Shown in pieces: positions 1 through 58,150 of a stretch of DNA of 64,000 nucleotides. Every line of letters begins with the position of its first letter. The first letter of the stretch is position 1. The notes under the pieces are model-generated. The model did no database searches. It worked only from the letters and a program-made list of their open reading frames with translations, and had not been told where the DNA came from. The position numbers and the translations under genes are program-made. Origin of the DNA: a virus. Lineage: Duplodnaviria; Heunggongvirae; Uroviricota; Caudoviricetes. The stretch lies in IMG/VR virus record IMGVR_UViG_2740892229_000011; one strand, 5' to 3'.

Positions 1-3000
1 CGTGCAGAATCCTCAAAAACGGCAGCCGCATCGTCCGCCAGTTCGGCAGCGTCATCGGCATCATCTGCGTCTGCTTCAAAAGATGAGGCGACCAGACAGG
101 CGTCAGCAGCGAAGGGCAGCGCCACGACGGCATCCACGAAAGCAACAGAGGCGGCAGGCAGTGCGACGGCAGCATCTCAGAGCAAAACTGCTGCTGAATC
201 CGCTGCGACCCGTGCGGAAGCTGCTGCTGATCGTGCTGAAGAGATTGCCGGTGCAGTTGCGATGGAAGACGCAAGCCTTACAACTAAAGGTGTTGTGAAA
301 CTTAGCAGTGCTGTCGACAGCACCAGTGAATCGCTGGCCGCAACGCCAAAAGCAGTTAAAGTAGTCAATGACAATGCGAACAGCAGGGTGCCATCTAACC
401 GAAAAATTAACGGGAAAGCACTGACTGCGGATATCACATTAACGCCGAAAGATATTGGTACTTTAAATTCAATAACGATGTCTTTCTCTGGCGGGGCCGG
501 GTGGTTCAAACTGGCTACTGTTACAATGCCACAAGCGAGTTCCATCGTTTACATCGCATTGATTGGTGGCGCTGGTTACAACGTCGGCTCCCCACATCAG
601 GCAGGCATTTCAGAACTGGTTCTACGAGCAGGCAATGGAAACCCCAAAGGGATTACAGGTGCTTTGTGGAAGCGTACAGCTGTCGGATTAACGAATTTCG
701 CCTGGATCAACACATCCGGCGATACATATGATATTTACGTTGAGATTGGCAATTATGCGACTCGTGTAAATATCCATTGGGATTGTACTGCAAATGCGAC
801 AGTTTCTATTTATACATCGCCAACATATTCAGCTAGTAAGCCTTCCAGCGTTACCGATGGTGTTGTTTATACGATGTATAGCACACATCAGAAACCGACG
901 CCGTTAGATATTGGAGCACTGCCAACAACCGGAGGAACAGTTTCAGGTCCGTTGTCTGTTACTGGTGGGATCACCGGAACATTAAATGGTAATGCAAGTA
1001 CAGCAACGAAATTGCAGACGGCAAGATCTATCGGTGGAGTTGGTTTCGACGGTTCTGCAAATATCAACCTTCCAGGTGTAAATACTACGGGTAATCAGAA
1101 CACCACTGGTAATGCTGCAACTGCTACAAAACTTCAGACGGCAAGAACTATCGGCGGCGTGAGCTTTGATGGTACTGCGAATATTAATTTGCCAGGTGTT
1201 AATACGACTGGTAATCAGAATACAACGGGCAACGCGGCTACTGCTACGAAGTTGCAGACTGCGCGTACTATCAATGGGGTGTCGTTTGACGGCTCGGCAA
1301 ATATTTCCTTGTCGCCAGCAAATATAGGTTGCCCGGCATCTCCTACTGGTTGGTTAACTACAGGAAGTAATGGCGGAGCAATAACAACAGCACAGTTAGT
1401 GACGTTATTGCAAAATAATGGAGCATTTAACACAAAGTCATGGATTGCTCGATGTGCTTGGGCCTATGCCAATAGTGCAACCATACCAAATAGTGAAACT
1501 GGTTGTGGCGTTATTCCATTGGCAGGAGCTGTTATAGAGGTATTTAATAACGGTAGTAGCTCAAACAATTATACGATCCGTATAACAACGGCCACAACGA
1601 CGAGTGTCTCTGGTGCTCTCACTAATGCGGAGTTTATCTATGTATTTAATGGCACAGATTATTCTCCGGGATGGCGAAGAGTATATAACACGAAAAACAA
1701 ACCAACAGCCTCTGATGTCGGTGCATTACCTCTTACCGGTGGTACATTATCTGGAGGTTTGACATCTTCTGGCGAGATCATTTCAAAATATGCAAATGGT
1801 TTCCGCATTGCTTACGGTAGCTTTGGGTTCTTTATCCGTAATGATGGATCGAACACATATTTCATGCTAACAGCATCAGGAGACACATTAGGTTCATGGA
1901 ACGGTTTGCGACCTATTACAATTAATAATACCAGCGGTGCTGTATCAATTGGTAATGGACTAAATGTGACTGGTGGCGTAAATGGTAGTTTGAACGGTAA
2001 TGCTTCAACAGCTACGAAGTTGCAAACAGCGAGAAACATCAATGGTGTTAAGTTTGATGGCTCAGGCGATATCAACATTAATACATTGGTATCTCGTGGC
2101 CGAGTTACGGCGTTAAGCGGCTCTACTCAAGGCACTGCTGGCATTCAAATGTACGAGGCGTACAACAATAGCTACCCGACCACGTATGGCAACGTATTGC
2201 ACATGAAAGGTGCGAGTGCTGCTGGTGAGGGCGAGTTGCTTATTGGCTGGAGTGGTACGAGCGGTGCACATGCGCCAGTTTTCATTCGCTCACGAAGAGA
2301 TACCACAGATGCGGCATGGTCAGCGTGGGCGCAGGTATATACTGCTAAGGATTCAATCCCTGGTGTGAATACAACCGGTAATCAGAATACTACTGGTAAT
2401 GCCGCAACAGCCACAAAATTGCAGACAGCAAGGAAAATTGCTGGTGTGGCGTTTGATGGCTCTGCCGATATTACTTTGACTGCGGCTAACCTTAATGCTT
2501 ATACGAAAACAGAGGTAACAAACCTTCTAAGTTCCTATGCAAGCAGATCATCACTGACAGGCTATAGTGGCAACCTGGATATTATTGCTGAAACACTGGT
2601 TGTCAAATCAGGCGGTAGTGGAGGGTTTGCTATATGGGATATTGGCACAACTACTAGCGGTGCCAATATGTACATTGATCCAAACCCTGGTATCAATACA
2701 GTTTGGCGTTCAACATCTTCAAGGCGCTATAAAAAGGATATTGAAACATTACAAGATCGATATGCTGATGAACTTTTGTCATTAAGACCTGTTTGGTATC
2801 GTTCAATTTGTCGAGGTGACCGAAAGGATTGGGGGTATTACGGCCTTATTGCTGAAGAGGTTGGTGAGATTGCCCCGCAATATGTCCATTGGCGTGAACC
2901 AACAAATAATGATTCTCCAGAAGATATTTCCTCAAATGGTATGGTCGCTGAAGGGGTGATGTATGAGCGTTTGGTTGTACCACTCATTCATCATATTCAG

Positions 3001-3057
3001 CAATTGACCAAAAGGGTTGAGGAGCTTGAAACGAAGTTAAATTCACCTAAAGAATAA
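1..3057 (+). CDS. Tail fibre protein, 5' end truncated by the window edge; C-terminal intramolecular-chaperone (peptidase S74-like) domain
   Basis: Frame 1 is open from nt 1 with no in-frame stop before the first ATG at 262, so the gene continues upstream. Ala/Ser-rich shaft; three tandem ~40-aa repeats 'NTTGNQNTTGNAATATKLQTAR.IGGV.FDG.ANINLPGV' with a fourth degenerate copy; C-terminal 'YKKDIETLQDRYADELLSLRPVWYR...GLIAEEVGEIAP' resembles auto-cleaving tail-fibre chaperone domains. Confidence 0.8.
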   Translation, partial: RAESSKTAAASSASSAASSASSASASKDEATRQASAAKGSATTASTKATEAAGSATAASQSKTAAESAATRAEAAADRAEEIAGAVAMEDASLTTKGVVKLSSAVDSTSESLAATPKAVKVVNDNANSRVPSNRKINGKALTADITLTPKDIGTLNSITMSFSGGAGWFKLATVTMPQASSIVYIALIGGAGYNVGSPHQAGISELVLRAGNGNPKGITGALWKRTAVGLTNFAWINTSGDTYDIYVEIGNYATRVNIHWDCTANATVSIYTSPTYSASKPSSVTDGVVYTMYSTHQKPTPLDIGALPTTGGTVSGPLSVTGGITGTLNGNASTATKLQTARSIGGVGFDGSANINLPGVNTTGNQNTTGNAATATKLQTARTIGGVSFDGTANINLPGVNTTGNQNTTGNAATATKLQTARTINGVSFDGSANISLSPANIGCPASPTGWLTTGSNGGAITTAQLVTLLQNNGAFNTKSWIARCAWAYANSATIPNSETGCGVIPLAGAVIEVFNNGSSSNNYTIRITTATTTSVSGALTNAEFIYVFNGTDYSPGWRRVYNTKNKPTASDVGALPLTGGTLSGGLTSSGEIISKYANGFRIAYGSFGFFIRNDGSNTYFMLTASGDTLGSWNGLRPITINNTSGAVSIGNGLNVTGGVNGSLNGNASTATKLQTARNINGVKFDGSGDININTLVSRGRVTALSGSTQGTAGIQMYEAYNNSYPTTYGNVLHMKGASAAGEGELLIGWSGTSGAHAPVFIRSRRDTTDAAWSAWAQVYTAKDSIPGVNTTGNQNTTGNAATATKLQTARKIAGVAFDGSADITLTAANLNAYTKTEVTNLLSSYASRSSLTGYSGNLDIIAETLVVKSGGSGGFAIWDIGTTTSGANMYIDPNPGINTVWRSTSSRRYKKDIETLQDRYADELLSLRPVWYRSICRGDRKDWGYYGLIAEEVGEIAPQYVHWREPTNNDSPEDISSNGMVAEGVMYERLVVPLIHHIQQLTKRVEELETKLNSPKE

Positions 3058-3117
3058 ACAACTTCAATCGGGGCTGGAACTAAACCAGCCCCTGCTTAAA
3101 AGTATAAGGATATCTTT

Positions 3118-3372
3118 ATGAGCTATGGTGCACAGGTATGGTCGCCATCAAGACAGGAGATGGTCGATGCGTTGGCCCCTGTTTATTACCTCGATTATTT
3201 TACTCCCTCTGGTTCTGGAAGTAGAACATATGAGGTTGAGGCGGGATTGGGAATCGACTATTACATAATGGACGTAACCAATGGGAAATACACAAGTCTT
3301 ACGGTTTCTGGAAATACCATTTCATGGTCTGGAGCTAGTGGCAATTTAAACATATTGGTTTTTCAAAAATAA
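3118..3372 (+). CDS. Hypothetical protein downstream of tail fibre
   Basis: 84-aa ORF, same strand, tightly spaced after tail-fibre stop; no recognisable motif. Confidence 0.4.
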   Translation: MSYGAQVWSPSRQEMVDALAPVYYLDYFTPSGSGSRTYEVEAGLGIDYYIMDVTNGKYTSLTVSGNTISWSGASGNLNILVFQK

Positions 3373-7923: not shown

Positions 7924-8282
7924 TGTCCATGAAAATGGGTGACCTAGCAAAGCGCAAAGAGCCTGATGCACCGGCTAAGAACACAACTCCTTTGCGCCAA
8001 CCAGTCAGACCACAGGGACGCCCGACTCGTGGCAAAGAGAAAATTAAAAGCCGCACAATGTCACTGGAAGACGAATACTTCGAACTGCTGGAGATGATGA
8101 AGTTCATCCCTCGCTTCGAGAAGTTCACTCGTTCTGACGTGATTCGAGCAGCCATTTTCCATCTGGCAGAGAAGTCACCGCAGGAAATCGAGGACATCGT
8201 GAAGCTTAACGAGGCGATCACAGCTGCCGACGTTACGATGCGTACCGATGAAATTAAACGAGAGTTGATGAAGAAAGGTTGA
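7923..8282 (+). CDS. Small partition partner (ParB/ParG-like centromere-binding protein)
   Basis: 119 aa, start overlaps parA stop; basic, apparently disordered N-terminus; position is diagnostic rather than sequence. Confidence 0.5.
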   Translation: MSMKMGDLAKRKEPDAPAKNTTPLRQPVRPQGRPTRGKEKIKSRTMSLEDEYFELLEMMKFIPRFEKFTRSDVIRAAIFHLAEKSPQEIEDIVKLNEAITAADVTMRTDEIKRELMKKG

Positions 8283-8333
8283 TTATATTGGGCGTTTGTT
8301 ACGCCCAATATATGAATTAAAGGATTGATACTA

Positions 8334-10028
8334 ATGGAATCGATAGAATCATTTCTAAAAAATTTTCTAGTTTCAGATCATCGGGTTGCCGTCATAAAAG
8401 GAGATTGGGGCGTTGGTAAAACTCATTATTGGAATAGTTTTTATACTAAGCATTCTGAAGGATTAGATTTTAATGCATATTCGTATGTTTCTTTGTTTGG
8501 GGTTAACTCTATTGGTGATATTAAAAAAGCTCTTTATCATTGTGCCACACCAATTAATGAAAAGAAATATAAAGAACTAATTTTATCTGAAACGGATCGA
8601 ACTATGATTCGTTATAGAAATGGGTTTTTGGGATGGTTGAAATACAACTCCTTGTCAAAATTTTTAATACATTTCGGAAAGAACGATTTTTTTGGGTTCA
8701 AAACAGATAACCTGCTGTCATCTCTTGAGTATAAATTTGTTAATAATTATTTGGTTTGTATTGATGATGTTGAAAGAAAAGGTAATTCGCTAGAAGTTAA
8801 AGAAATTATGGGGGTAATTGATGAATTGGCAAGAAGAAAAGGCTGCAAAGTTGTTCTAATTTTAAATGAAGATAATTTACATGATGAAACTGCAAAAAAA
8901 CAGTTTTTAGAGTACAGAGAAAAAGTAATTGATGTCGAAATAAAATACGATCCTACGCCTGAGAAGAACTTACGTAAAGTTTTTTATGAAACTGATTCTG
9001 ATTTTCTTTTGTTAAAAGTCTTAGCAAATGACTTAGACATTAAAAATATCCGTATATTAAATAAAATAAAAACATCTCTGGTTAATCTTAGGAATGAGCT
9101 AAGCTTGGCAGAGGATAAGGTTAGAGAAAGTTTTATCAATAGATTGGTTCTGTTTTCAGTGGTTTACTATTCTGGTGTTCCAGGTGTTGATTATGCCTTG
9201 TTTAAAGAATCAATTAAAAACATACATGTATTTGATTACATGTTAGATGATAAAAAGGATGATTCTGTATATTCATTTATTAATAGTCTTGATATTATTT
9301 ATGAACGAGCGGAAATTGCTTTCGATGATGACATAGATTTTTATCTCAAGAATGGTTATCTTTCTACTGAAAGCAATATTCGAGGTATAATAGAAGAAAA
9401 AAATAAACAATATAAAGAACACAAGGCTTTATGTGAGGTTAACAATGTTTGGGATATTTTTAGTGACTCATTCAAGGACAATGAATCTGAGTTTATTTCT
9501 AAGATAAAATGTGTAATTAACGACAATCTTTCACACATACCTGTTGCTCACTTCATAGGCTTGATTGATATCTTAAATAGATTGGAGATTGATTGTGATA
9601 GTTATATAGAGGCATATGCAGATGCCTTTGTTAGCCAAGATGATGCTTATACTGCTTTTCGGAATTTGTATGTAGAGATATTTGGTAACGAAAAGTTAGG
9701 TCTGCTAATTCAAAAAAAATTGATGGATAAGAAGCCTGAAGAGACTAATTTAGAGAATGTTTTATACAAAATAATTGAAGGCAAATTTAATCATAGTGAC
9801 ATAGCATATCTTAACAGTTTCTCTGAAGATGATTATTTAAAGTGGATATTATCCCGCAATCAGGATGCTTTGGATTTAGTGAGAAAGGGGTTGCTCAGAT
9901 TCAAAAGTATGCAAGAACTAACAGAAGAACAGCAAAAAATCACGAATAAAGCAATAGGTGCATTAACGAAACTGGCCTCTAGATCAAGTCTTAACAAACT
10001 ACGTGTGAGCAGATTGCTTAATAATTAA
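8334..10028 (+). CDS. KAP-family P-loop NTPase
   Basis: Walker A 'GDWGVGKTHYWN' and Walker B-like 'LVCIDDVER'; about 565 aa; conspicuously AT-rich codon usage compared with neighbours; bounded by hairpins at 8287-8309 and 10038-10091. Confidence 0.6.
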   Translation: MESIESFLKNFLVSDHRVAVIKGDWGVGKTHYWNSFYTKHSEGLDFNAYSYVSLFGVNSIGDIKKALYHCATPINEKKYKELILSETDRTMIRYRNGFLGWLKYNSLSKFLIHFGKNDFFGFKTDNLLSSLEYKFVNNYLVCIDDVERKGNSLEVKEIMGVIDELARRKGCKVVLILNEDNLHDETAKKQFLEYREKVIDVEIKYDPTPEKNLRKVFYETDSDFLLLKVLANDLDIKNIRILNKIKTSLVNLRNELSLAEDKVRESFINRLVLFSVVYYSGVPGVDYALFKESIKNIHVFDYMLDDKKDDSVYSFINSLDIIYERAEIAFDDDIDFYLKNGYLSTESNIRGIIEEKNKQYKEHKALCEVNNVWDIFSDSFKDNESEFISKIKCVINDNLSHIPVAHFIGLIDILNRLEIDCDSYIEAYADAFVSQDDAYTAFRNLYVEIFGNEKLGLLIQKKLMDKKPEETNLENVLYKIIEGKFNHSDIAYLNSFSEDDYLKWILSRNQDALDLVRKGLLRFKSMQELTEEQQKITNKAIGALTKLASRSSLNKLRVSRLLNN

Positions 10029-20453: not shown

Positions 20454-20744
20454 ATGAGCAATTTAACTTCTTGGGACTGGTGGTTGGCCACCTATTTCTT
20501 AGCGGCCGGAGTCGCATTCGCCTTTTACGTAGGTCAGTTAGTCGTAAAACTGTTGCTGATAAAATTTGCTAGTCATAAACGTATCGATGATGGTCTGTGG
20601 CGTCTTGGCACTCTGGTGGAAACTCGCTACGGGCAACTTAAGGAGAACGAAACCATTACTATCCAAGCGAAACGGTTCACTGCCACCATCACAAGAACAC
20701 CTAGTCGTAGAGTGGCCTTGATCAAAAAAGTCACAACCGAATAA
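20454..20744 (+). CDS. Small membrane protein
   Basis: 96 aa; N-terminal TM 'WWLATYFLAAGVAFAFYVGQLVV'. Confidence 0.4.
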   Translation: MSNLTSWDWWLATYFLAAGVAFAFYVGQLVVKLLLIKFASHKRIDDGLWRLGTLVETRYGQLKENETITIQAKRFTATITRTPSRRVALIKKVTTE

Positions 20745-21522
20745 AAACACAATGATAAGTATTTACTTACTTATCTTTTATGTATAAGATGACTTTGTTT
20801 TCGTTGAGACGCGACTGTTTGAACTTAAATACAAGTGCAAACGAAGAAGTCTATCTGGCAGTAGCCTAATAAGCCAAACACCAGCGAGGTCAGTTTCCAG
20901 CCTCGTTACCGAAATGGGACACACTGAGCGAGTGTGATTGCAGAACGCAGGAGGGAACATTCATGTTCCCTCCGATGAAGTAACAGAATGGGCGGTTGGT
21001 ATATTTTCAACTCCATATGACTCCCGGATTCTTAGCCACTGACCGCCCATCCTGTTACGTCATTTTGTTCAATTATGTCGTTTATACTGGGTTAAAAAGC
21101 GGCGACGTAGCCCGGCTGGTATGGTTAGCCAGCACACAACGTTGAGGCCATTACATTTTTATCAATTCTAAGGTTCTATTCACAGAGATACCGGCGAGCG
21201 TTGATATGTAACATGTTGGGCAAACATTCAATCGGAGTAGTGGCCTCAACGTTGTGAAGACAGGATTGTTGTGTAGGTTTAACCACTGTTGCCATTGGTG
21301 CCTGTTTTCACAACAAATGATTCCATACATCACATTGTATAAATTACAAAGTAGGTGCTGTCCTCAGAAACATCATCTACTTAAAGATTTTGCCTTCTAC
21401 TATTGAGCGAAGTCGAAAGCGTCTGGCACTAACGAAAAGTGCAAGTAGCGGTGCGTTTCCTGGCAGAAACTAAACCGTCGCGATTGGCACTGTTGAGTAA
21501 TAAATACTGGCAGTGCTGAATT

Positions 21523-21597
21523 GATGGTGTAGCTCAGCGGTAGAGCAGTTGGCTGTTAACCAACTGGTCGGTGGTTCGAATCCACCCACCATCGCCA
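21523..21597 (+). tRNA. tRNA-Asn (anticodon GTT)
   Basis: Manual fold: acceptor gatggtg/caccatc, D-arm 'agctcagcggtagagc', anticodon arm gttgg-CTGTTAA-ccaac, T-arm ggtgg-ttcgaat-ccacc, 3' CCA encoded. Confidence 0.7.
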
Positions 21598-21602
21598 ATT
21601 TA

Positions 21603-21689
21603 GGGGAGTTAGTCCGTAGGGGCAGCGGGGTAGACTGTAAATCTACTGTCATTGCGACTCGGGTGGTTCGACTCCATCACTCCCCACCA
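21603..21689 (+). tRNA. tRNA-Tyr (anticodon GTA), long variable arm
   Basis: Acceptor ggggagt/actcccc, anticodon arm gtaga-CTGTAAA-tctac, long variable arm, T-loop 'ttcgact', CCA encoded. Confidence 0.6.
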
Positions 21690-21693
21690 AATT

Positions 21694-21769
21694 GCCGGTT
21701 TAGCTCAGTTGGTAGAGCGCCTGCCTTGTAAGCAGGATGTCAGCGGTTCGATCCCGTTAACCGGCACCA
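21694..21769 (+). tRNA. tRNA-Thr (anticodon TGT)
   Basis: Acceptor gccggtt/aaccggc, D-arm 'agctcagttggtagagc', anticodon arm cctgc-CTTGTAA-gcagg, T-loop 'ttcgatc', CCA encoded. Confidence 0.7.
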
Positions 21770-22089
21770 ACACAACAGGTAAGAGCATTGGGCGAATCGG
21801 CGATACTGACCCACAAGCCCGTAAATCGATAGAGTCAGACCAGTGCTCTTACCGTTGTGAGGAAGTGCAGCTCTTTGAAGCAACCAGAAGATAAGCATCT
21901 GGCTTCACAACACAACGATAAGATCATTACGGTTAATCGTCGTTCATGTGCACAATGACTGGTCGAAAGGTAGTGATCTTACCGTTGTGATGAATGCACA
22001 GGCTGATGTGCCGCAACTACAGTAGTGCGCGCTTTGCGGGGCTTGCTACAACCCTGTGTCGGAGTTCAGCACCGACCATCACAATAGCT

Positions 22090-22176
22090 GGAGAGTAGGG
22101 AGCATGGTGCTCAAGCGGTCTTGAAATCCGTCCCATTGTGCAAACGATGATGGTTCGATTCCATTACTCTCCGCCA
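22090..22176 (+). tRNA. Probable tRNA-Ser (anticodon TGA), long variable arm
   Basis: Acceptor ggagagt/actctcc, anticodon loop 'cttgaaa', T-arm gatgg-ttcgatt-ccatt, 3' gCCA; D-arm and anticodon stem pair imperfectly, so less certain. Confidence 0.45.
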
Positions 22177-22333
22177 GACACAGCGTTGAGCGGTTTGGCC
22201 TTTTAATCACCCAGATTAAGACTCCGCTAACATAAACCAGACCGCTCAACGCTGTGATAGACAATTACGGCAGACGTTCTTAACCATAGCTTGCTAACAT
22301 CCTAGCAACACTTTTTTTCAGCGCAAAATTCAA

Positions 22334-22354
22334 AGGGGCTTCGGCCCCTTTTTT
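22334..22354 (+). terminator. Rho-independent terminator after tRNA region
   Basis: 'aggggcttcggcccct' hairpin followed by 'tttttt'. Confidence 0.65.
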
Positions 22355-22397
22355 GCAACTGAAAGAGTCAAGTCTACGAACTTTGTAGGAAGAAATA

Positions 22398-22748
22398 ATG
22401 ACCAGCAAAGAGAACACACCACTAAAAGTCACCCCTGAACACATTGAACAACTCATTCAAAGTGAACATTATTTCACTGCATATGATGCCAGCCACGGGG
22501 ATAACTTCATCTCTGTTTACAATTCAAAAACAGATATCGACAAAGGTCATGAGTCGTTAAAACTCTTAACGTTCTGCGTTATGGTTCTCAAAAATGGATA
22601 TACCGTAACGGGAAAATCTGCGTGCGTAAGACCAGAAATCTTCAACTTTGATGTTGGTCGCGAGTACGCTCGAAAAGATGCTATCGATCAAATCTGGCCA
22701 CTGGAAGGCTATCTCCTGAAGCAAAAGTGGCATGAGGCAAAGCAATGA
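22398..22748 (+). CDS. Hypothetical protein
   Basis: 116-aa ORF; start overlaps glutaredoxin gene. Confidence 0.4.
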   Translation: MTSKENTPLKVTPEHIEQLIQSEHYFTAYDASHGDNFISVYNSKTDIDKGHESLKLLTFCVMVLKNGYTVTGKSACVRPEIFNFDVGREYARKDAIDQIWPLEGYLLKQKWHEAKQ

Positions 22749-34149: not shown

Positions 34150-35094
34150 GTGAATTATCTCTTCGTAGATGGCAATAGCCTGGGTTATTACCACCAACAA
34201 TCTGACAAATTGCACAACGGCGAAATGGAAGTACAGGCTGCTTTCGGCTTTGTTAAGAACGTCCGTCGTTATGCCTCCATCCTCCATGCCCGACCTATGA
34301 TTCTTTGGGATGGATTTAGTGACAAGCGTCGCGACTTTTACCCGGACTACAAAGCAAATCGCGACGACGATCCTGATATGAAAAAGATGAAGGAAGGCTT
34401 TGCTATCCAGAAGCCATACATCCTCAAAATGATGACCGCGCTTGGAGTTACCCAACTCATTGCAAAAGATGCAGAAGCGGATGATCTGGCCGGGCTGCTG
34501 GTATCCCGCATGGCACCGCAGCCAACCGTTGAACACATCTATCTGTTAACAGGCGATAGCGACTGGCTTCAGTTAGTTCGTGAAAACGTAAGCTGGGTAA
34601 GCCTGCGTGAAGACGCCAAAAACAAGCAGGTTAATTTTGAGCAATTTGCGGAGCTGACAGGATTCGCCACGCCTCGCGCATTTTTGGAAGCAAAAGCATT
34701 ACAAGGCGATAACTCGGACAACATTAGCGGTGTTGGTGGCATTGGTGCTGGCGGTGCGAAAGAGCTGCTGCATGAATGGGGAAGTGTCGCAACGATGGTA
34801 CGCGGCATCAACGACGGCTCAATCGTGGTTAATAAAGGGCGTCATAAGACCGCCTTCAACAAACTAGCGAAGAATGCCTTCAACGAGAAAACAGGCTGTC
34901 GAATGCTCGAAGCGTTCAAGAGAAACATCACGCTAATGAACCTGATTGAGACGAAGTTTCCGCCTACCGAAATCGAAACAATCAAAGGCAATCGTGACGT
35001 GAAAGCATTCGAGCAACTGTGCTACGAGCTGAATTTCCGTTCGTTCCTTGAAGACCTTGAAGTGTTTGTTCTTCCATTCGAAAGGTATTGCTAA
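34150..35094 (+). CDS. 5'-3' exonuclease / flap endonuclease (RNase H-like fold)
   Basis: 'LFVDGNSLGYY', 'YKANRDDDP', 'DAEADDLAG', 'LLTGDSDWLQLV' match 5'-nuclease family motifs. The listed ORF starts at GTG 34099 inside the upstream terminator, so GTG 34150 is preferred. Confidence 0.7.
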   Translation: MNYLFVDGNSLGYYHQQSDKLHNGEMEVQAAFGFVKNVRRYASILHARPMILWDGFSDKRRDFYPDYKANRDDDPDMKKMKEGFAIQKPYILKMMTALGVTQLIAKDAEADDLAGLLVSRMAPQPTVEHIYLLTGDSDWLQLVRENVSWVSLREDAKNKQVNFEQFAELTGFATPRAFLEAKALQGDNSDNISGVGGIGAGGAKELLHEWGSVATMVRGINDGSIVVNKGRHKTAFNKLAKNAFNEKTGCRMLEAFKRNITLMNLIETKFPPTEIETIKGNRDVKAFEQLCYELNFRSFLEDLEVFVLPFERYC

Positions 35095-58058: not shown

Positions 58059-58080
58059 TTTGTTCTGGCGTCTGTAATTA

Positions 58081-58150
58081 GCCTGCTTCTGTATATAAAT
58101 AACTACATATTAATTATTAATATACGGAAGCAGGCTGTTTTATATCAGAG
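58081..58150 (+). terminator. Long AT-loop hairpin (terminator-like); second copy of the element at 10038-10095
   Basis: 'gcctgcttctgtatata...tatacggaagcaggc' then 'tgtttt'; near-identical stem sequence at 10038-10091. Confidence 0.5.

What the first reader, a model, noticed from the sequence alone, without database searches (positions are those of the whole stretch)
20745..22397. About 1.6 kb nearly ORF-free structured region containing a four-tRNA array and several long perfect hairpins
No ORF over 60 codons of convincing coding character occurs from 20745 to 22397. The region contains four tRNAs (Asn, Tyr, Thr, probable Ser) and long inverted repeats: 'cacacaacgttgaggccat' / 'atggcctcaacgttgtga' (21128-21255), 'cacaacaggtaagagca' / 'tgctcttaccgttgtga' (21770-21870), 'cacagcgttgagcggt' / 'accgctcaacgctgtg' (22180-22255), 'aacagaatgggcggt' / 'accgcccatcctgtt' (20985-21058) and an 11-bp perfect stem at 20936-20960. 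Several stems share a CACAAC / GTTGTG core. Candidate roles are a large structured ncRNA, tRNA-processing elements, a packaging or attachment site for the adjacent integrase, or a lytic origin.
Basis: seen in the sequence. Interest (0 to 1): 0.55.

Follow-up and report, generated by a model that had tools for sequence, protein, structure and literature searches.

The report
Mobile phage noncoding-RNA island with tRNAs
The ORF-free stretch is a single noncoding-RNA operon, shared by several families of enterobacterial phages and phage-plasmids, that strings together four tRNAs, a family of long RNA hairpins, small-RNA-like elements and an unexpected tmRNA-like "tag" template whose function is unknown.

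Summary
Positions 20745-22397 are non-coding and hold four + strand tRNAs (Asn, Tyr, Thr and an atypical Ser-UGA). They also hold 4 of the only 5 long Watson-Crick hairpins in the 64-kb window (shuffles: 0).

The region reads as one transcription unit, inferred from sequence only. A conserved promoter overlapped by a palindrome lies at 20754-20790, and tandem terminators lie at 22291-22355.

It is built of four kinds of module:
- a conserved 5' RNA carrying a tmRNA-like tag frame (ANEEVYLAVA*, no usable start codon);
- five long-stem hairpins with CACAAC/GUUGUG bases;
- three interleaved elements closed by a GUUGUG...CACAAY helix, whose P1 relatives resemble the prophage sRNA family STnc100;
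- the tRNAs, which come and go between relatives.

The hairpin stems covary, and G.U outnumbers A.C 54:15, so they are + strand RNA structures, not DNA sites.

The same island occurs in SSU5-like and P1-like phage-plasmids, including Y. pestis pMT1. It also occurs without tRNAs in Shigella phage DS8 and in a lambdoid prophage.

My best reading is a polycistronic RNA in which the hairpins act as processing or stabilising punctuation. Origin, packaging-site and integrase-site readings are not supported. The function is untested.

The parts
20754..20790 (+). Putative sigma-70 promoter: -35 TTTACT at 20762-20767, a 17-nt spacer, and -10 TAAGAT at 20785-20790. It is overlapped by the perfect palindrome GATAAGTA-N6-TACTTATC (20754-20775), a candidate repressor operator.
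   Evidence: Read from the sequence. The palindrome is repeat I13. The hexamers and their spacing are conserved in six relatives, including K. pneumoniae, where the -10 is TATGAT. The match is only 8 of 12, below the scanner's threshold, so it was not called.
20795..20836 (+). Highly conserved 5' leader of the 'U' RNA (UUGUUUUCGUUGAGACGCGACUGUUUGAAC...).
   Evidence: Nearly invariant across SSU5-like relatives and alignable with P1 and D6.
20837..20872 (+). tmRNA-like tag frame: GCA AAC GAA GAA GTC TAT CTG GCA GTA GCC TAA TAA, which reads ANEEVYLAVA**.
   Evidence: the frame is always 10 codons plus a stop. Eight SSU5-, P1- and DS8-type variants appear (ANEDTYLAVA, ANDNQYLAVA, ANDDLMMVAA, ANDDVVLMAA and others), with synonymous changes among them; a ninth, ANEEMYLAVA, occurs in the lambdoid prophage. 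Most relatives have no in-frame ATG, GTG or TTG and carry an in-frame stop 5-7 codons upstream. Weak partial Rfam tmRNA hits cover only this segment.
20884..20973 (+). Three short hairpins after the tag: 20884-20906, 20920-20936 and 20950-20973.
   Evidence: Compensatory changes are seen between relatives: CGAGG/CCUCG against CGGGG/CCCCG, and GGAGGGAACAU against GGAUAGGGCAUG and their partners.
20975..21063 (+). Long-stem hairpin module E (about 25 bp).
   Evidence: It is orthologous to the P1 module at L002 1214-1308, with pairs changed on both sides.
21114..21133 (+). Small conserved hairpin GGCUGG-loop-GCCAGC.
   Evidence: Read; conserved.
21135..21256 (+). Long-stem hairpin module A (20-bp stem, 82-nt structured loop).
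   Evidence: (z = -6.9).
21251..21314 (+). Interleaved element A', closed by GUUGUGAAGACAGG/CCUGUUUUCACAAC. It shares its GUUGUG hexamer with module A.
   Evidence: (I6). Compensatory changes in K. pneumoniae.
21315..21522 (+). Partly conserved structured spacer upstream of tRNA-Asn.
21523..21769 (+). tRNA-Asn(GUU) 21523-21597, tRNA-Tyr(GUA) 21603-21689 and tRNA-Thr(UGU) 21694-21769.
21771..21859 (+). Long-stem hairpin module B (bulged A after CACAAC). It starts 2 nt after the CCA end of tRNA-Thr.
   Evidence: The same stem carries at least 8 different loop sequences in other phages.
21854..21911 (+). Interleaved element B' (GUUGUGAGG...CUUCACAAC).
   Evidence: P1 carries it almost unchanged, with one base different in the closing helix.
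21911..21989 (+).
   Evidence: (I2).
21984..22085 (+). Interleaved element C'. It has a 9-bp closing helix GUUGUGAUG/CAUCACAAU, an internal hairpin GCACAGGCUGAUGUGC, and a 3' hairpin GUCGG-AGUUCAGCA-CCGAC that abuts the closing helix, giving a tRNA-like layout.
   Evidence: for the fold. Searches show eight sequence types sharing this architecture, with covariation in the closing helix. The P1-type variant hits Rfam STnc100 at 33-40 bits against a cut-off of 47. The window copy itself gives no STnc100 hit.
22090..22176 (+). Atypical tRNA-Ser(UGA) with a long variable arm. Its acceptor and T stems can also be drawn in an 8/4 arrangement like tRNA-Sec.
   Evidence: The phage D6 annotation notes the same problem.
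22179..22256 (+). Long-stem hairpin module D (20 bp). The loop carries the conserved motif AAGACUCCGC.
   Evidence: (z = -10.4), where the loop motif is kept in E. coli, Klebsiella and Enterobacter copies.
22291..22355 (+). Tandem intrinsic terminators: TTGCTA-loop-TAGCAA followed by T7 (22291-22318), and GGGGC-TTCG-GCCCC followed by T7 (22335-22355).
   Evidence: Read and conserved in K. oxytoca (L007 loop text). The scanner did not list either one. For the second, a likely reason is that A-T pairs extending the stem use up part of the T run.

Best explanation
Positions 20754-22355 form one + strand noncoding-RNA operon. It is a mobile 'RNA island' exchanged among enterobacterial phages.

A repressor-controllable promoter drives a polycistronic transcript of about 1.56 kb that ends at two terminators. 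The transcript is a chain of independently folding modules:
- a conserved 5' RNA with a tmRNA-like tag template;
- five long-stem hairpins (E, A, B, C, D) with stems of about 20-27 bp, CACAAC/GUUGUG bases and a conserved U.G wobble;
- three interleaved elements closed by a GUUGUG...CACAAY helix and related to STnc100-type prophage sRNAs;
- four tRNAs that are interchangeable cargo.

The proposed mechanism is inferred, not shown. The two-helical-turn stems would be cut by a host double-strand-specific endonuclease, most plausibly RNase III. RNase P would cut at the tRNA 5' ends. Together these cuts would break the precursor into mature tRNAs and stable small RNAs, and the hairpin halves left behind would protect the new ends. 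On that reading the hairpins punctuate the transcript and stabilise its products.

The tRNAs would then supplement or replace host tRNAs, either for codon supply or to escape tRNA-cleaving defence systems, as has been shown for the tRNA-Tyr of phage T5.

What is shown: the anatomy, the strand, the covariation, the modularity and the distribution. What is inferred: transcription, the identity of the nuclease, and the biological role.
For: The four tRNAs are confirmed. Long hairpins are concentrated here, 4 of 5 in 64 kb against 0 in shuffles, and they are thermodynamically exceptional.

Across 18 paralogous and orthologous stems, 96.7% of cells are paired and 12 of 20 pairs changed on both sides. 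Slid controls pair at 34-54%. G.T wobbles number 54 against 15 A.C, so the + strand is the one that folds. In 20 of 27 modules the + strand folds more stably than the - strand.

The hairpins begin within 0-3 nt of tRNA 3' CCA ends. The promoter hexamers, leader and terminators are conserved across genera.

The array is combinatorial in more than 100 P1-like and SSU5-like contigs. Asn or Arg, Tyr, Thr, Ser and the individual hairpins are each present or absent independently. Some P1 and SSU5-like segments are near-identical.

In P1 the homologous array lies downstream of the C1-controlled ban promoter, according to the P1 record's own annotation.

Stand-alone units with their own TTGACA-N17-TAGATT promoter and terminator occur between the tail genes of phage DS8. 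A further copy lies between Q and the lysis genes of a lambdoid prophage.

The P1 relatives of the interleaved elements match Rfam STnc100 with E = 1e-7 in a local search. STnc100 is a prophage sRNA family related to PasD (bioRxiv 10.64898/2026.05.13.724894). A phage tRNA-Tyr rescues phage from retron-Eco7 (PMC11555353).
Against: No transcript, 5' or 3' end, or cleavage data were available. An RNA-seq catalogue of Y. pestis sRNAs lists nothing at the pMT1 copy, although that study selected RNAs of 50-500 nt from uninduced cells.

The promoter matches the consensus at only 8 of 12 positions. RNase III is inferred only from stem length and position; nothing tested it.

Two features suggest more than a generic cleavage site. 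The stem sequence is strongly conserved, not just its pairing. The loops are large (24-82 nt) and partly conserved, for example AAGACUCCGC in module D and T-arm-like hairpins in some P1 and lambdoid copies.

The hairpin sequences used were chosen because they form inverted repeats, so their high percentage paired is partly circular. Only the changes on both sides and the wobble asymmetry are informative. CRISPRi knock-down of the P1 region had no effect on plaque formation.
Confidence: 0.55

Rival explanations
1. The long hairpins are themselves precursors of regulatory or decoy small RNAs, and the variable loop is the functional 'cargo'. The conserved stem would be a common scaffold or protein-binding platform (Hfq, ProQ or a tRNA-handling enzyme). 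The island would be a battery of sRNAs, like STnc100/PasD, that reprogramme the host or blunt its defences. This overlaps with the best explanation and differs mainly in what the hairpins are for.
For: The same stem (CACAAC-A-GGTAAGRGCATT ... CYCTTACCGTTGTG) carries at least 8 unrelated loop sequences in different phages. Loop motifs are conserved among orthologues: AAGACUCCGC in D, and CACAGAG and AUGUYGGG in A. Several loops contain T-arm-like hairpins: GGGTTCGAATCCC in P1, GAGTTCGACTCTC in a P1-like or SSU5-like viral contig (IMG/VR), and GCGGTTCGACTCCGC in the lambdoid copy. The neighbouring elements are related to known Hfq-associated prophage sRNAs. The units behave like morons, with their own promoter and terminator.
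Against: No seed-to-target complementarity was tested. No terminator-type 3' end (hairpin plus U tract), typical of Hfq sRNAs, follows the individual hairpins. There are no expression data.
Confidence: 0.3
2. The island is a rearranged, phage-borne relative of tmRNA. The tag frame (ANEEVYLAVA*) would be a template for trans-translation or a decoy of it. A tRNA-like partner would be supplied by one of the T-arm-bearing hairpins or by the elements closed like acceptor stems, possibly after processing and CCA addition.
For: The frame is 10 codons plus a stop and starts with GCA AAC GA. It is conserved as a peptide pattern, AN[DE][DEN]x[YMV][LM][AVM][AV]A*, across four phage groups whose surrounding nucleotide sequence has diverged (about 75% identity between the window and SSU5). 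There are synonymous changes, no usable start codon, and A at position -4 in the sequences read by eye (window, SSU5, Cronobacter, P1). By my own rough calculation from codon frequencies, a chance match to such a pattern in 64 kb is of the order of 1e-6. tmRNA covariance models repeatedly pick out exactly this segment at weak scores. In the lambdoid copy the standard tmRNA model also picks a T-arm about 130 nt downstream. T-loop-like hairpins abut the closing helices, as in tRNA.
Against: No tRNA-like domain is detected by ARAGORN or by Rfam. There is no G3.U70 pair and no encoded CCA at any candidate acceptor end. All Rfam tmRNA scores are far below the gathering score. The window's own long hairpins have no T-arm. 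In a tmRNA the tag lies between the two halves of the tRNA-like domain, which is not the order seen here.
Confidence: 0.2
3. The hairpins are DNA-level recombination sites, analogous to integron attC sites, that are folded as single strands and used to shuffle tRNA and RNA cassettes, possibly by the nearby tyrosine integrase.
For: They are imperfect palindromes of 64-122 nt, conserved mainly at their ends (…AAC / GTT…), with variable centres. The cassette content of the array varies in a combinatorial way. Accessory DNA is inserted or begins right next to hairpins: caf1R in pMT1 and Tn3 in Citrobacter, and there is a break inside a hairpin loop in SSU5. A Phage_integrase protein is encoded 850 nt downstream.
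Against: The ends do not fit the attC consensus RYYYAAC/GTTRRRY: CACAAC and GTTGTG break the YYY and RRR runs. Stems are near-perfect over 20 bp and lack the attC spacer and extrahelical-base layout. Most relatives have the hairpins and no integrase nearby. tRNA gains and losses have breakpoints at tRNA ends, not in the stems. Hairpins E and A lie inside a block kept in the same order from Klebsiella to Yersinia. Orientation always follows the tRNA strand.
Confidence: 0.06
4. The hairpins and spacers are decaying remnants of former tRNA genes and repeated recombination scars, with no present function.
For: Degenerate T-arm-like motifs are seen in some loops. The array is highly mosaic. The P1 region is non-essential.
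Against: Pairing is maintained through many two-sided substitutions. The strand asymmetry would not be kept in junk. The 5' RNA and hairpins E and A are highly conserved across genera. The unit has been acquired independently, with its own promoter and terminator, by unrelated phages.
Confidence: 0.07

Closest known systems
Phage tRNA gene clusters with associated stable RNAs (phage T4 tRNA cluster with rnaC/rnaD, 'species 1 and 2' RNAs)
   Same: Both pack tRNAs tightly on one strand with structured non-tRNA RNAs of about 120-140 nt beside them. T4 rnaC folds into long hairpins plus a T-arm (CCGGGUUCGAAUCCCGG), like the T-arm-bearing hairpins of P1 and the lambdoid copy. The function of the extra RNAs is unknown in both.
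   Different: No sequence similarity and no CACAAC/GUUGUG signature. The T4 RNAs are single copies, not a repeated family. T4 has no tag-like frame.
STnc100 (Rfam RF02076) / PasD prophage-encoded sRNAs
   Same: The P1-type interleaved element aligns to STnc100 over model positions 31-147. The match includes the closing helix, the GGUGAAU motif and the terminal CACCGGGAGGCACCCGGCACC hairpin. Both are carried by enterobacterial phages, often next to tail genes.
   Different: Scores of 33-40 bits fall below the gathering score of 47. The window's own copies (A', B', C') give no hit and share only the architecture. Here the elements are embedded in a polycistronic array, not free-standing genes with their own terminators.
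tmRNA (ssrA), mRNA-like domain
   Same: A 10-codon frame that starts with GCA AAC GA and has no start codon, preceded by an A-rich stretch with A at -4, and ending in a hydrophobic, Ala-rich tail plus stop. From memory, the E. coli tag is ANDENYALAA.
   Different: No tRNA-like domain, no G3.U70, no CCA, no detectable pseudoknots, and a different order of parts. All covariance-model scores are far below threshold.
RNase III processing hairpins between cistrons (T7 early region R1.1-type sites; the stems flanking 16S and 23S rRNA)
   Same: Double-stranded stems of about two helical turns, lying between functional RNAs in a polycistronic transcript and sharing a family-wide consensus. tRNAs are released from the same precursor. 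This comparison rests on established knowledge, not on a test made here.
   Different: The loops here are 24-82 nt and partly conserved, unlike the small loops or internal bubbles of T7 sites. Cleavage has not been shown.
Murine gammaherpesvirus 68 TMERs (tRNA-like element followed by pre-miRNA hairpins)
   Same: This is an analogy in mechanism only. A tRNA or tRNA-like unit is followed directly by long hairpins, so tRNA-processing enzymes define the hairpin ends.
   Different: A eukaryotic virus transcribed by RNA polymerase III with microRNA output. There is no homology.
Integron attC sites
   Same: Imperfect palindromes of about 60-120 nt with conserved …AAC/GTT… ends and variable centres, lying next to variable cassettes.
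   Different: The core consensus is not met. There are no extrahelical bases or central spacer, no integron integrase, and the cassettes are RNAs. The structure follows the transcribed strand.

Membership tests
tRNA (Rfam RF00005) | Cloverleaf scoring above the gathering score (29 bits), with an anticodon | tested here: met
   Asn 75.5, Thr 73.1 and Tyr 39.7 bits. ARAGORN agrees.
tRNA (fourth gene, Ser-UGA) | Score above the gathering score of a tRNA-clan model | tested here: inconclusive
   ARAGORN calls Ser(tga) with a long variable arm. Rfam's best match is tRNA-Sec at 41.1 bits, below the cut-off of 47, and nothing passed at gathering threshold. The D6 record notes that tRNAscan-SE could not call the isotype.
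tmRNA | Tag reading frame with a resume codon, no start codon, and a hydrophobic/Ala C-terminus followed by a stop | tested here: met
tmRNA | tRNA-like domain: acceptor stem with G3.U70, T-arm, and a 3' CCA | tested here: not met
   ARAGORN finds no tmRNA in the window or in any phage locus fetched by that point (L001-L148); its single call, in L142, lies in a bacterial MAG that matched the DNA pattern by chance. There is no T-loop motif outside the four tRNAs. The candidate closing helices have no G.U at position 3 and no CCA.
tmRNA | Covariance-model score above the gathering score (RF00023, RF01850, RF04321) | tested here: not met
   11-24 bits against cut-offs of 47-84.
STnc100 (RF02076) | Score above the gathering score (47 bits) | tested here: not met
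   P1 scores 33.4 bits and a P1-like plasmid 40.1 bits. The window copies give no hit.
STnc100 (RF02076) | Architecture: a closing helix, a 5' GGUGAAU motif, and a terminal hairpin abutting the 3' strand | tested here: met
   Eight sequence types, including the window's C', pair at 94% of cells, and 4 pairs changed on both sides.
RNase III processing site | Roughly 20 bp or more of near-continuous double-stranded RNA on the transcribed strand | tested here: met
   Stems of 20-27 bp, with the wobble asymmetry indicating the + strand.
RNase III processing site | Cleavage by RNase III in vivo or in vitro | not testable with these tools
   No RNA end data were available.
Integron attC | R''/R' cores RYYYAAC / GTTRRRY | tested here: not met
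   The cores are (A)CACAAC and GTTGTG(A); the third base of each triplet breaks the consensus.
Integron attC | Association with an integron integrase and ORF cassettes | tested here: not met
   The integrase matches the generic Phage_integrase family only and is absent from most relatives. The cassettes are RNAs.
Bacterial Y RNA (YrlA, RF02553) | Covariance-model match of a long stem plus a tRNA-like domain | tested here: not met
   No hit in the window at E up to 10. The only P1 hit (25.6 bits against a cut-off of 69) lies over the genuine tRNAs.
MITE / REP-type repeat | Near-identical copies including the interior, with terminal inverted repeats and target duplications | tested here: not met
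   The copies share stems but have unrelated interiors, and the stems differ by compensatory changes.
Replication origin / pac site | Iterons or other direct repeats, or a skew inflection | tested here: not met
   The direct repeats are essentially tRNA T-arms and hairpin arms. Cumulative GC skew shows no turn near 21 kb.

The most novel reading that the evidence does not exclude
Enterobacterial phages of at least four kinds carry a conserved, start-codon-less, ssrA-like tag template inside a structured RNA that also contains tRNA-like hairpins. The four kinds are P1-like phage-plasmids, SSU5-like phage-plasmids (including pMT1 of Yersinia pestis), Deseoctovirus and lambdoid prophages. If this is a working phage analogue of tmRNA, or a decoy for it, the phage could tag proteins with its own degron or interfere with SmpB/tmRNA ribosome rescue. 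It would be the first tmRNA-type system with a rearranged or split architecture carried by these classical phages.
Probability: 0.2. Interest if true: 0.9.

Novelty: new variant of a known kind. Interest (0 to 1): 0.66.

Why it matters
Phage tRNA arrays and prophage sRNAs are each known. This analysis shows that in P1-like and SSU5-like phage-plasmids they belong to one modular, horizontally exchanged RNA island.

About 5% of complete E. coli genomes (259 of 5,426) carry the 5' part of this island, positions 20790-21320. RefSeq annotates nothing there.

In P1 the homologous hairpins lie under the annotated plp and upl ORFs, which are probably artefacts.

The island provides a defined, genetically tractable place to ask three questions. 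P1 is easy to manipulate, which makes these tractable.
- How do phages mature accessory tRNAs from long transcripts?
- What do the enigmatic stable RNAs next to phage tRNAs do? This has been open since the T4 species 1 and 2 RNAs were described.
- Do phages manipulate ribosome rescue through a tmRNA-like tag template?

Tried and rejected
1. Rfam scans of the window and relatives at permissive thresholds. No family except tRNA passes its cut-off. Y RNA, DicF, GOLLD/ROOL-type large RNAs and the C/D-box look-alikes were all rejected.
2. A covariance model of the hairpin stem (R1). The large variable loops make it insensitive; it recovered only C and D, at E of about 0.04. I used pattern and pairing searches instead.
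Nothing was found.
4. A conventional small ORF for the tag. Rejected because most relatives lack a start codon and have an upstream in-frame stop, and the alternative-frame mini-ORFs are not conserved (and reading).
5. attC, MITE, origin, pac and attP readings. See the membership tests.
6. Expression evidence. The Y. pestis sRNA catalogues list two pMT1 sRNAs, and I checked that both lie elsewhere on the plasmid. The P1 genome paper (PMC523184) is not held.
7. CsrA-type GGA motifs, k-turn (C/D box) motifs and AlaRS-type G.U identity in the stems were considered by eye and dropped, because they are not conserved across copies.


Full report
**Checking the observation**

The window is an SSU5-like phage-plasmid. 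It is 100% identical over this region to E. coli plasmid NZ_CP027358 and close to Escherichia phages CMS-2020a and Cyrano.

Between a 96-aa ORF ending at 20744 and a Phage_gp49_66-family ORF starting at 22398 there is no credible coding sequence. The mechanical ORFs there are 80 aa or shorter and overlap tRNAs and hairpins. Relatives differ by many indels that are not multiples of three.

ARAGORN finds four + strand tRNAs: Asn 21523-21597, Tyr 21603-21689, Thr 21694-21769 and Ser(UGA) 22090-22176. Rfam confirms the first three at gathering score. The fourth is atypical: its best match is tRNA-Sec at 41 bits against a cut-off of 47. The phage D6 annotation flags the same difficulty.

There are small slips in coordinates and in one base. 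A fifth long hairpin at 21908-21992 was missed.

The hairpins fold with z-scores from -4.5 to -10.4 against dinucleotide shuffles. Only five gapless Watson-Crick hairpins of 15 bp or more exist in the whole 64 kb. Four of them are in this 1.6 kb, and shuffled windows give none. The CACAAC/GTTGTG hexamer occurs 9 times within 855 bases, against 39 in the whole window.

**Anatomy**

Read together with six relatives, the region looks like one transcription unit.

At 20754-20775 a perfect palindrome, GATAAGTA-N6-TACTTATC, overlaps a conserved TTTACT-N17-TAAGAT promoter at 20762-20790. Sequence conservation starts abruptly about 5 nt downstream of the -10 hexamer. At the other end, two intrinsic terminators (22291-22318 and 22335-22355) follow the last hairpin. 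These terminators are conserved in K. oxytoca.

Four kinds of module lie between promoter and terminators.

1. A 5' 'U' RNA at 20795-21063. It consists of a near-invariant leader, a short frame at 20837-20869, three small hairpins whose stems change by compensation between relatives, and a long hairpin E.
2. Long-stem 'L' hairpins E, A, B, C and D. Their stems are 20-27 bp and their loops 24-82 nt.
3. Three 'S' elements between them: A' 21251-21314, B' 21854-21911 and C' 21984-22085. Each is closed by a helix that begins with the GUUGUG ending the preceding L hairpin and ends with CACAAC or, in C', CACAAU.
4. The tRNAs.

L hairpins start 0-3 nt after a tRNA's CCA end. In Cronobacter and Klebsiella the CCA is itself drawn into the stem.

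**RNA structure or DNA site?**

I aligned 18 L stems, paralogues from this window plus copies from P1, Cronobacter, Enterobacter and Klebsiella. Loops were replaced by GAAA, and the single bulged A was removed from four of them.

In that alignment 96.7% of cells pair, and 12 of 20 pairs show changes on both sides. With the partner slid by 1-3 columns, pairing falls to 34-54%. The percentage paired is partly circular, because the sequences were found as inverted repeats. The two-sided changes at homologous positions are not circular.

Non-Watson-Crick positions in the stems are G.T 54 times and A.C 15 times. In 20 of 27 modules the + strand folds more stably than the - strand. A U.G wobble at stem position 17 is kept in 11 of 18 copies and is never A.C.

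A double-stranded DNA palindrome would be symmetric in these respects. The structure is therefore selected on the + strand, the strand of the tRNAs. That argues for RNA.

The S elements share their architecture across eight sequence types. They have a 9-bp closing helix that covaries (GUUGUGAUG/CAUCACAAC, GUUGUGGUG/CACCACAAC, GUUGCGGUG/CACCGCAAC). They also have a 5' hairpin, and a 3' hairpin that abuts the 3' strand in the way a T-arm abuts an acceptor stem.

**Relatives and distribution**

The 5' U RNA and hairpins E and A are conserved at about 75-80% identity in SSU5, pHCM2-like Salmonella plasmids, Enterobacter, Cronobacter, Klebsiella, Citrobacter and Yersinia pestis pMT1. In pMT1 the caf1 capsule locus begins right after hairpin A.

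P1 and its relatives carry a homologous island downstream of the C1-controlled ban promoter. It contains U-like RNA, tRNA-Asn, tRNA-Thr, L and S modules, then tciABC, tRNA-Ile and ban. Some segments (B' and C') are identical or nearly so between P1 and this window.

In P1 the L and S modules lie under the - strand ORFs plp and upl. The window has no equivalent ORF, and knock-down of those P1 genes has no phenotype.

An exact-pattern scan of viral contigs returned more than 120 loci, all P1-like or SSU5-like. Their architectures are strikingly combinatorial: Asn or Arg, with or without Tyr, with or without Thr, with or without individual L modules, with or without Ser. One and the same stem carries at least eight unrelated loops.

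A degenerate two-arm pattern found the family in only about six of 185,579 species genomes. All six were Enterobacterales or an unclassified metagenome bin: Escherichia, Pantoea, Mixta and Citrobacter.

Two further contexts matter most for interpretation.

- Shigella phage DS8 (Deseoctovirus) has a stand-alone unit on the opposite strand between two tail genes. It has a TTGACA-N17-TAGATT promoter, U RNA, two L modules, an S element and a terminator, and no tRNA.
- A lambdoid prophage in an E. coli chromosome has L, U, L and S in the leader between the Q antiterminator and the lysis genes, again with no tRNA.

The island is therefore an autonomous, mobile noncoding unit, and the tRNAs are optional cargo. 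The U core plus hairpin A (positions 20790-21320) is present in 259 of 5,426 complete E. coli genomes, almost always on plasmids, and RefSeq annotates nothing there.

**Comparison with known families**

No Rfam family other than tRNA reaches its threshold anywhere in the region.

The P1-type S element aligns to STnc100 (RF02076) over model positions 31-147 at 33-40 bits. That is E = 1e-7 in a local search, but below the gathering score of 47. STnc100 is a prophage sRNA recently shown to share ancestry with PasD of enteropathogenic E. coli (bioRxiv 10.64898/2026.05.13.724894). The window's own S copies do not hit the model and are linked to it only through shared architecture.

T4's species 1 RNA (rnaC), which lies beside the T4 tRNA cluster, also combines long hairpins with a T-arm but shows no sequence relationship.

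Y RNA, attC, MITE, origin and attP readings each fail a defining feature, as listed in the membership tests.

**The tag-like frame**

Positions 20837-20869 read GCA AAC GAA GAA GTC TAT CTG GCA GTA GCC TAA, which translates as ANEEVYLAVA*.

The homologous position reads as follows in relatives:

| Source | Tag |
|---|---|
| SSU5, pMT1, Enterobacter | ANEDTYLAVA |
| Cronobacter, Klebsiella | ANDNQYLAVA |
| Lambdoid prophage | ANEEMYLAVA |
| P1 family | ANDDLMMVAA, ANDNLMMVAA, ANDDLMMAAA |
| Pantoea | ANDDLMLAAA |
| Phage DS8 | ANDDVVLMAA |

The frame is always ten codons plus a stop. Synonymous differences occur (TAT/TAC, GCC/GCT, GCA/GCT, CTG/CTT). In the four sequences I read by eye (window, SSU5, Cronobacter, P1) there is an A four bases upstream of the GCA. 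In most relatives there is no ATG, GTG or TTG in frame, and an in-frame stop lies 5-7 codons upstream.

This is the signature of a tmRNA tag template. From memory, the E. coli tag is ANDENYALAA. tmRNA covariance models repeatedly pick out exactly this segment, but at 11-24 bits.

The other half of a tmRNA is missing. ARAGORN and Rfam find no tRNA-like domain in the window or in any phage locus fetched by that point, L001-L148. There is no G3.U70 and no encoded CCA. Nothing resembles E. coli ssrA beyond the tag.

Some L loops in P1 and in the lambdoid copy contain good T-arms, and the S elements have a tRNA-like layout. The window's own L hairpins do not. I therefore record this as the most novel reading that the evidence does not exclude, not as the explanation.

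**Best explanation and its limits**

The anatomy is best explained as a polycistronic noncoding RNA whose long stems act as punctuation.

Stems of two helical turns on the transcribed strand lie immediately 3' of tRNAs and between other structured RNAs. That is the arrangement by which RNase III, together with RNase P, dissects rRNA-tRNA operons and T7 early transcripts, leaving hairpins that protect the new ends. This last point is established knowledge, not something tested here.

The tRNAs would supplement host pools or escape tRNA-cleaving defences, as shown for the phage T5 tRNA-Tyr against retron-Eco7 (PMC11555353).

Two facts go beyond this minimal reading. The stem sequence itself is strongly conserved. 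The stems also carry diverse, partly conserved loops. The main rival is that the hairpins are themselves small regulatory or decoy RNAs on a common scaffold, and the two readings are compatible.

None of this is supported by expression data. The only catalogue I could check, Y. pestis sRNA-seq, lists nothing here. The P1 genome paper was not available.

**Verdict**

The tRNAs, and in part the STnc100-like elements, are known kinds. Three things were described in none of the papers I could search: the long-hairpin family, the conserved 5' RNA with its tag-like frame, and the recognition that all of these form one mobile island shared by P1-like, SSU5-like, Deseoctovirus and lambdoid phages.

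Noticed in passing
window 20837-20872: A tmRNA-like tag frame (ANEEVYLAVA**) with no usable start codon. It is conserved as a peptide pattern in SSU5-like, P1-like, DS8 and lambdoid copies, and no tRNA-like domain was found to go with it.
   Followed up: yes
window 22090-22176: The 'tRNA-Ser(UGA)' is non-canonical. It scores best against the tRNA-Sec model (41 bits, below the cut-off), can be drawn with an 8/4 acceptor/T arrangement, and has a U.U mismatch closing the anticodon stem. Copies in P1-like and Klebsiella elements behave the same way (44-45 bits).
   Followed up: partly
L002 (phage P1 NC_005856) 1629-2198, i.e. record 69472-70041: The annotated P1 genes plp ('putative lipoprotein') and upl lie on the strand opposite to the hairpin and STnc100-like RNA modules. 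The homologous window segment has no such ORF, so they are probably annotation artefacts.
   Followed up: partly
L008 (Y. pestis pMT1 NZ_CP045150) 2500-3020: In pMT1 the RNA island is cut off right after hairpin A, where the caf1R-caf1M-caf1A (F1 capsule) locus begins. In a Citrobacter plasmid a Tn3 transposase follows hairpin E, and in SSU5 the last hairpin is broken inside its loop. The island borders a hot spot for accessory DNA.
   Followed up: partly
window 21123-21155: A 33-nt stretch at the 5' arm of hairpin A matches, at 100%, a sequence annotated 'CRISPR' in the chromosome of E. coli NZ_LR778147 (1705873-1705905). This is apparently a natural spacer against this phage-plasmid family.
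   Followed up: no
L149/L051 (Shigella phage DS8 NC_054650) 2366-3208, minus strand: An unannotated 840-nt gap between tail genes holds a complete stand-alone copy of the RNA unit (promoter, tag ANDDVVLMAA*, two long hairpins, an STnc100-like element, terminator) with no tRNA.
   Followed up: yes
L150 (E. coli NZ_AP022095 chromosome) 2860-3310: A lambdoid prophage carries the same unit between the Q antiterminator/pR'-tR' region and the holin gene. Its tag is ANEEMYLAVA*, and one long hairpin has a loop containing a canonical T-arm (GCGGTTCGACTCCGC).
   Followed up: partly
window 58080-58136: The only other long perfect-type hairpin in the window (17-nt arms AGCCTGCTTCTGTATAT/ATATACGGAAGCAGGCT, 23-nt loop). 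It is unrelated in sequence to the CACAAC family.
   Followed up: no
window 8001-10000: A marked drop in G+C content (0.31-0.36 against about 0.46 elsewhere) together with high GC skew, suggesting a foreign insert.
   Followed up: no
window 34213-34273: A palindromic candidate starting with CACAAC, picked up weakly on both strands by the hairpin-stem model (13.3 bits, E = 0.09).
   Followed up: no
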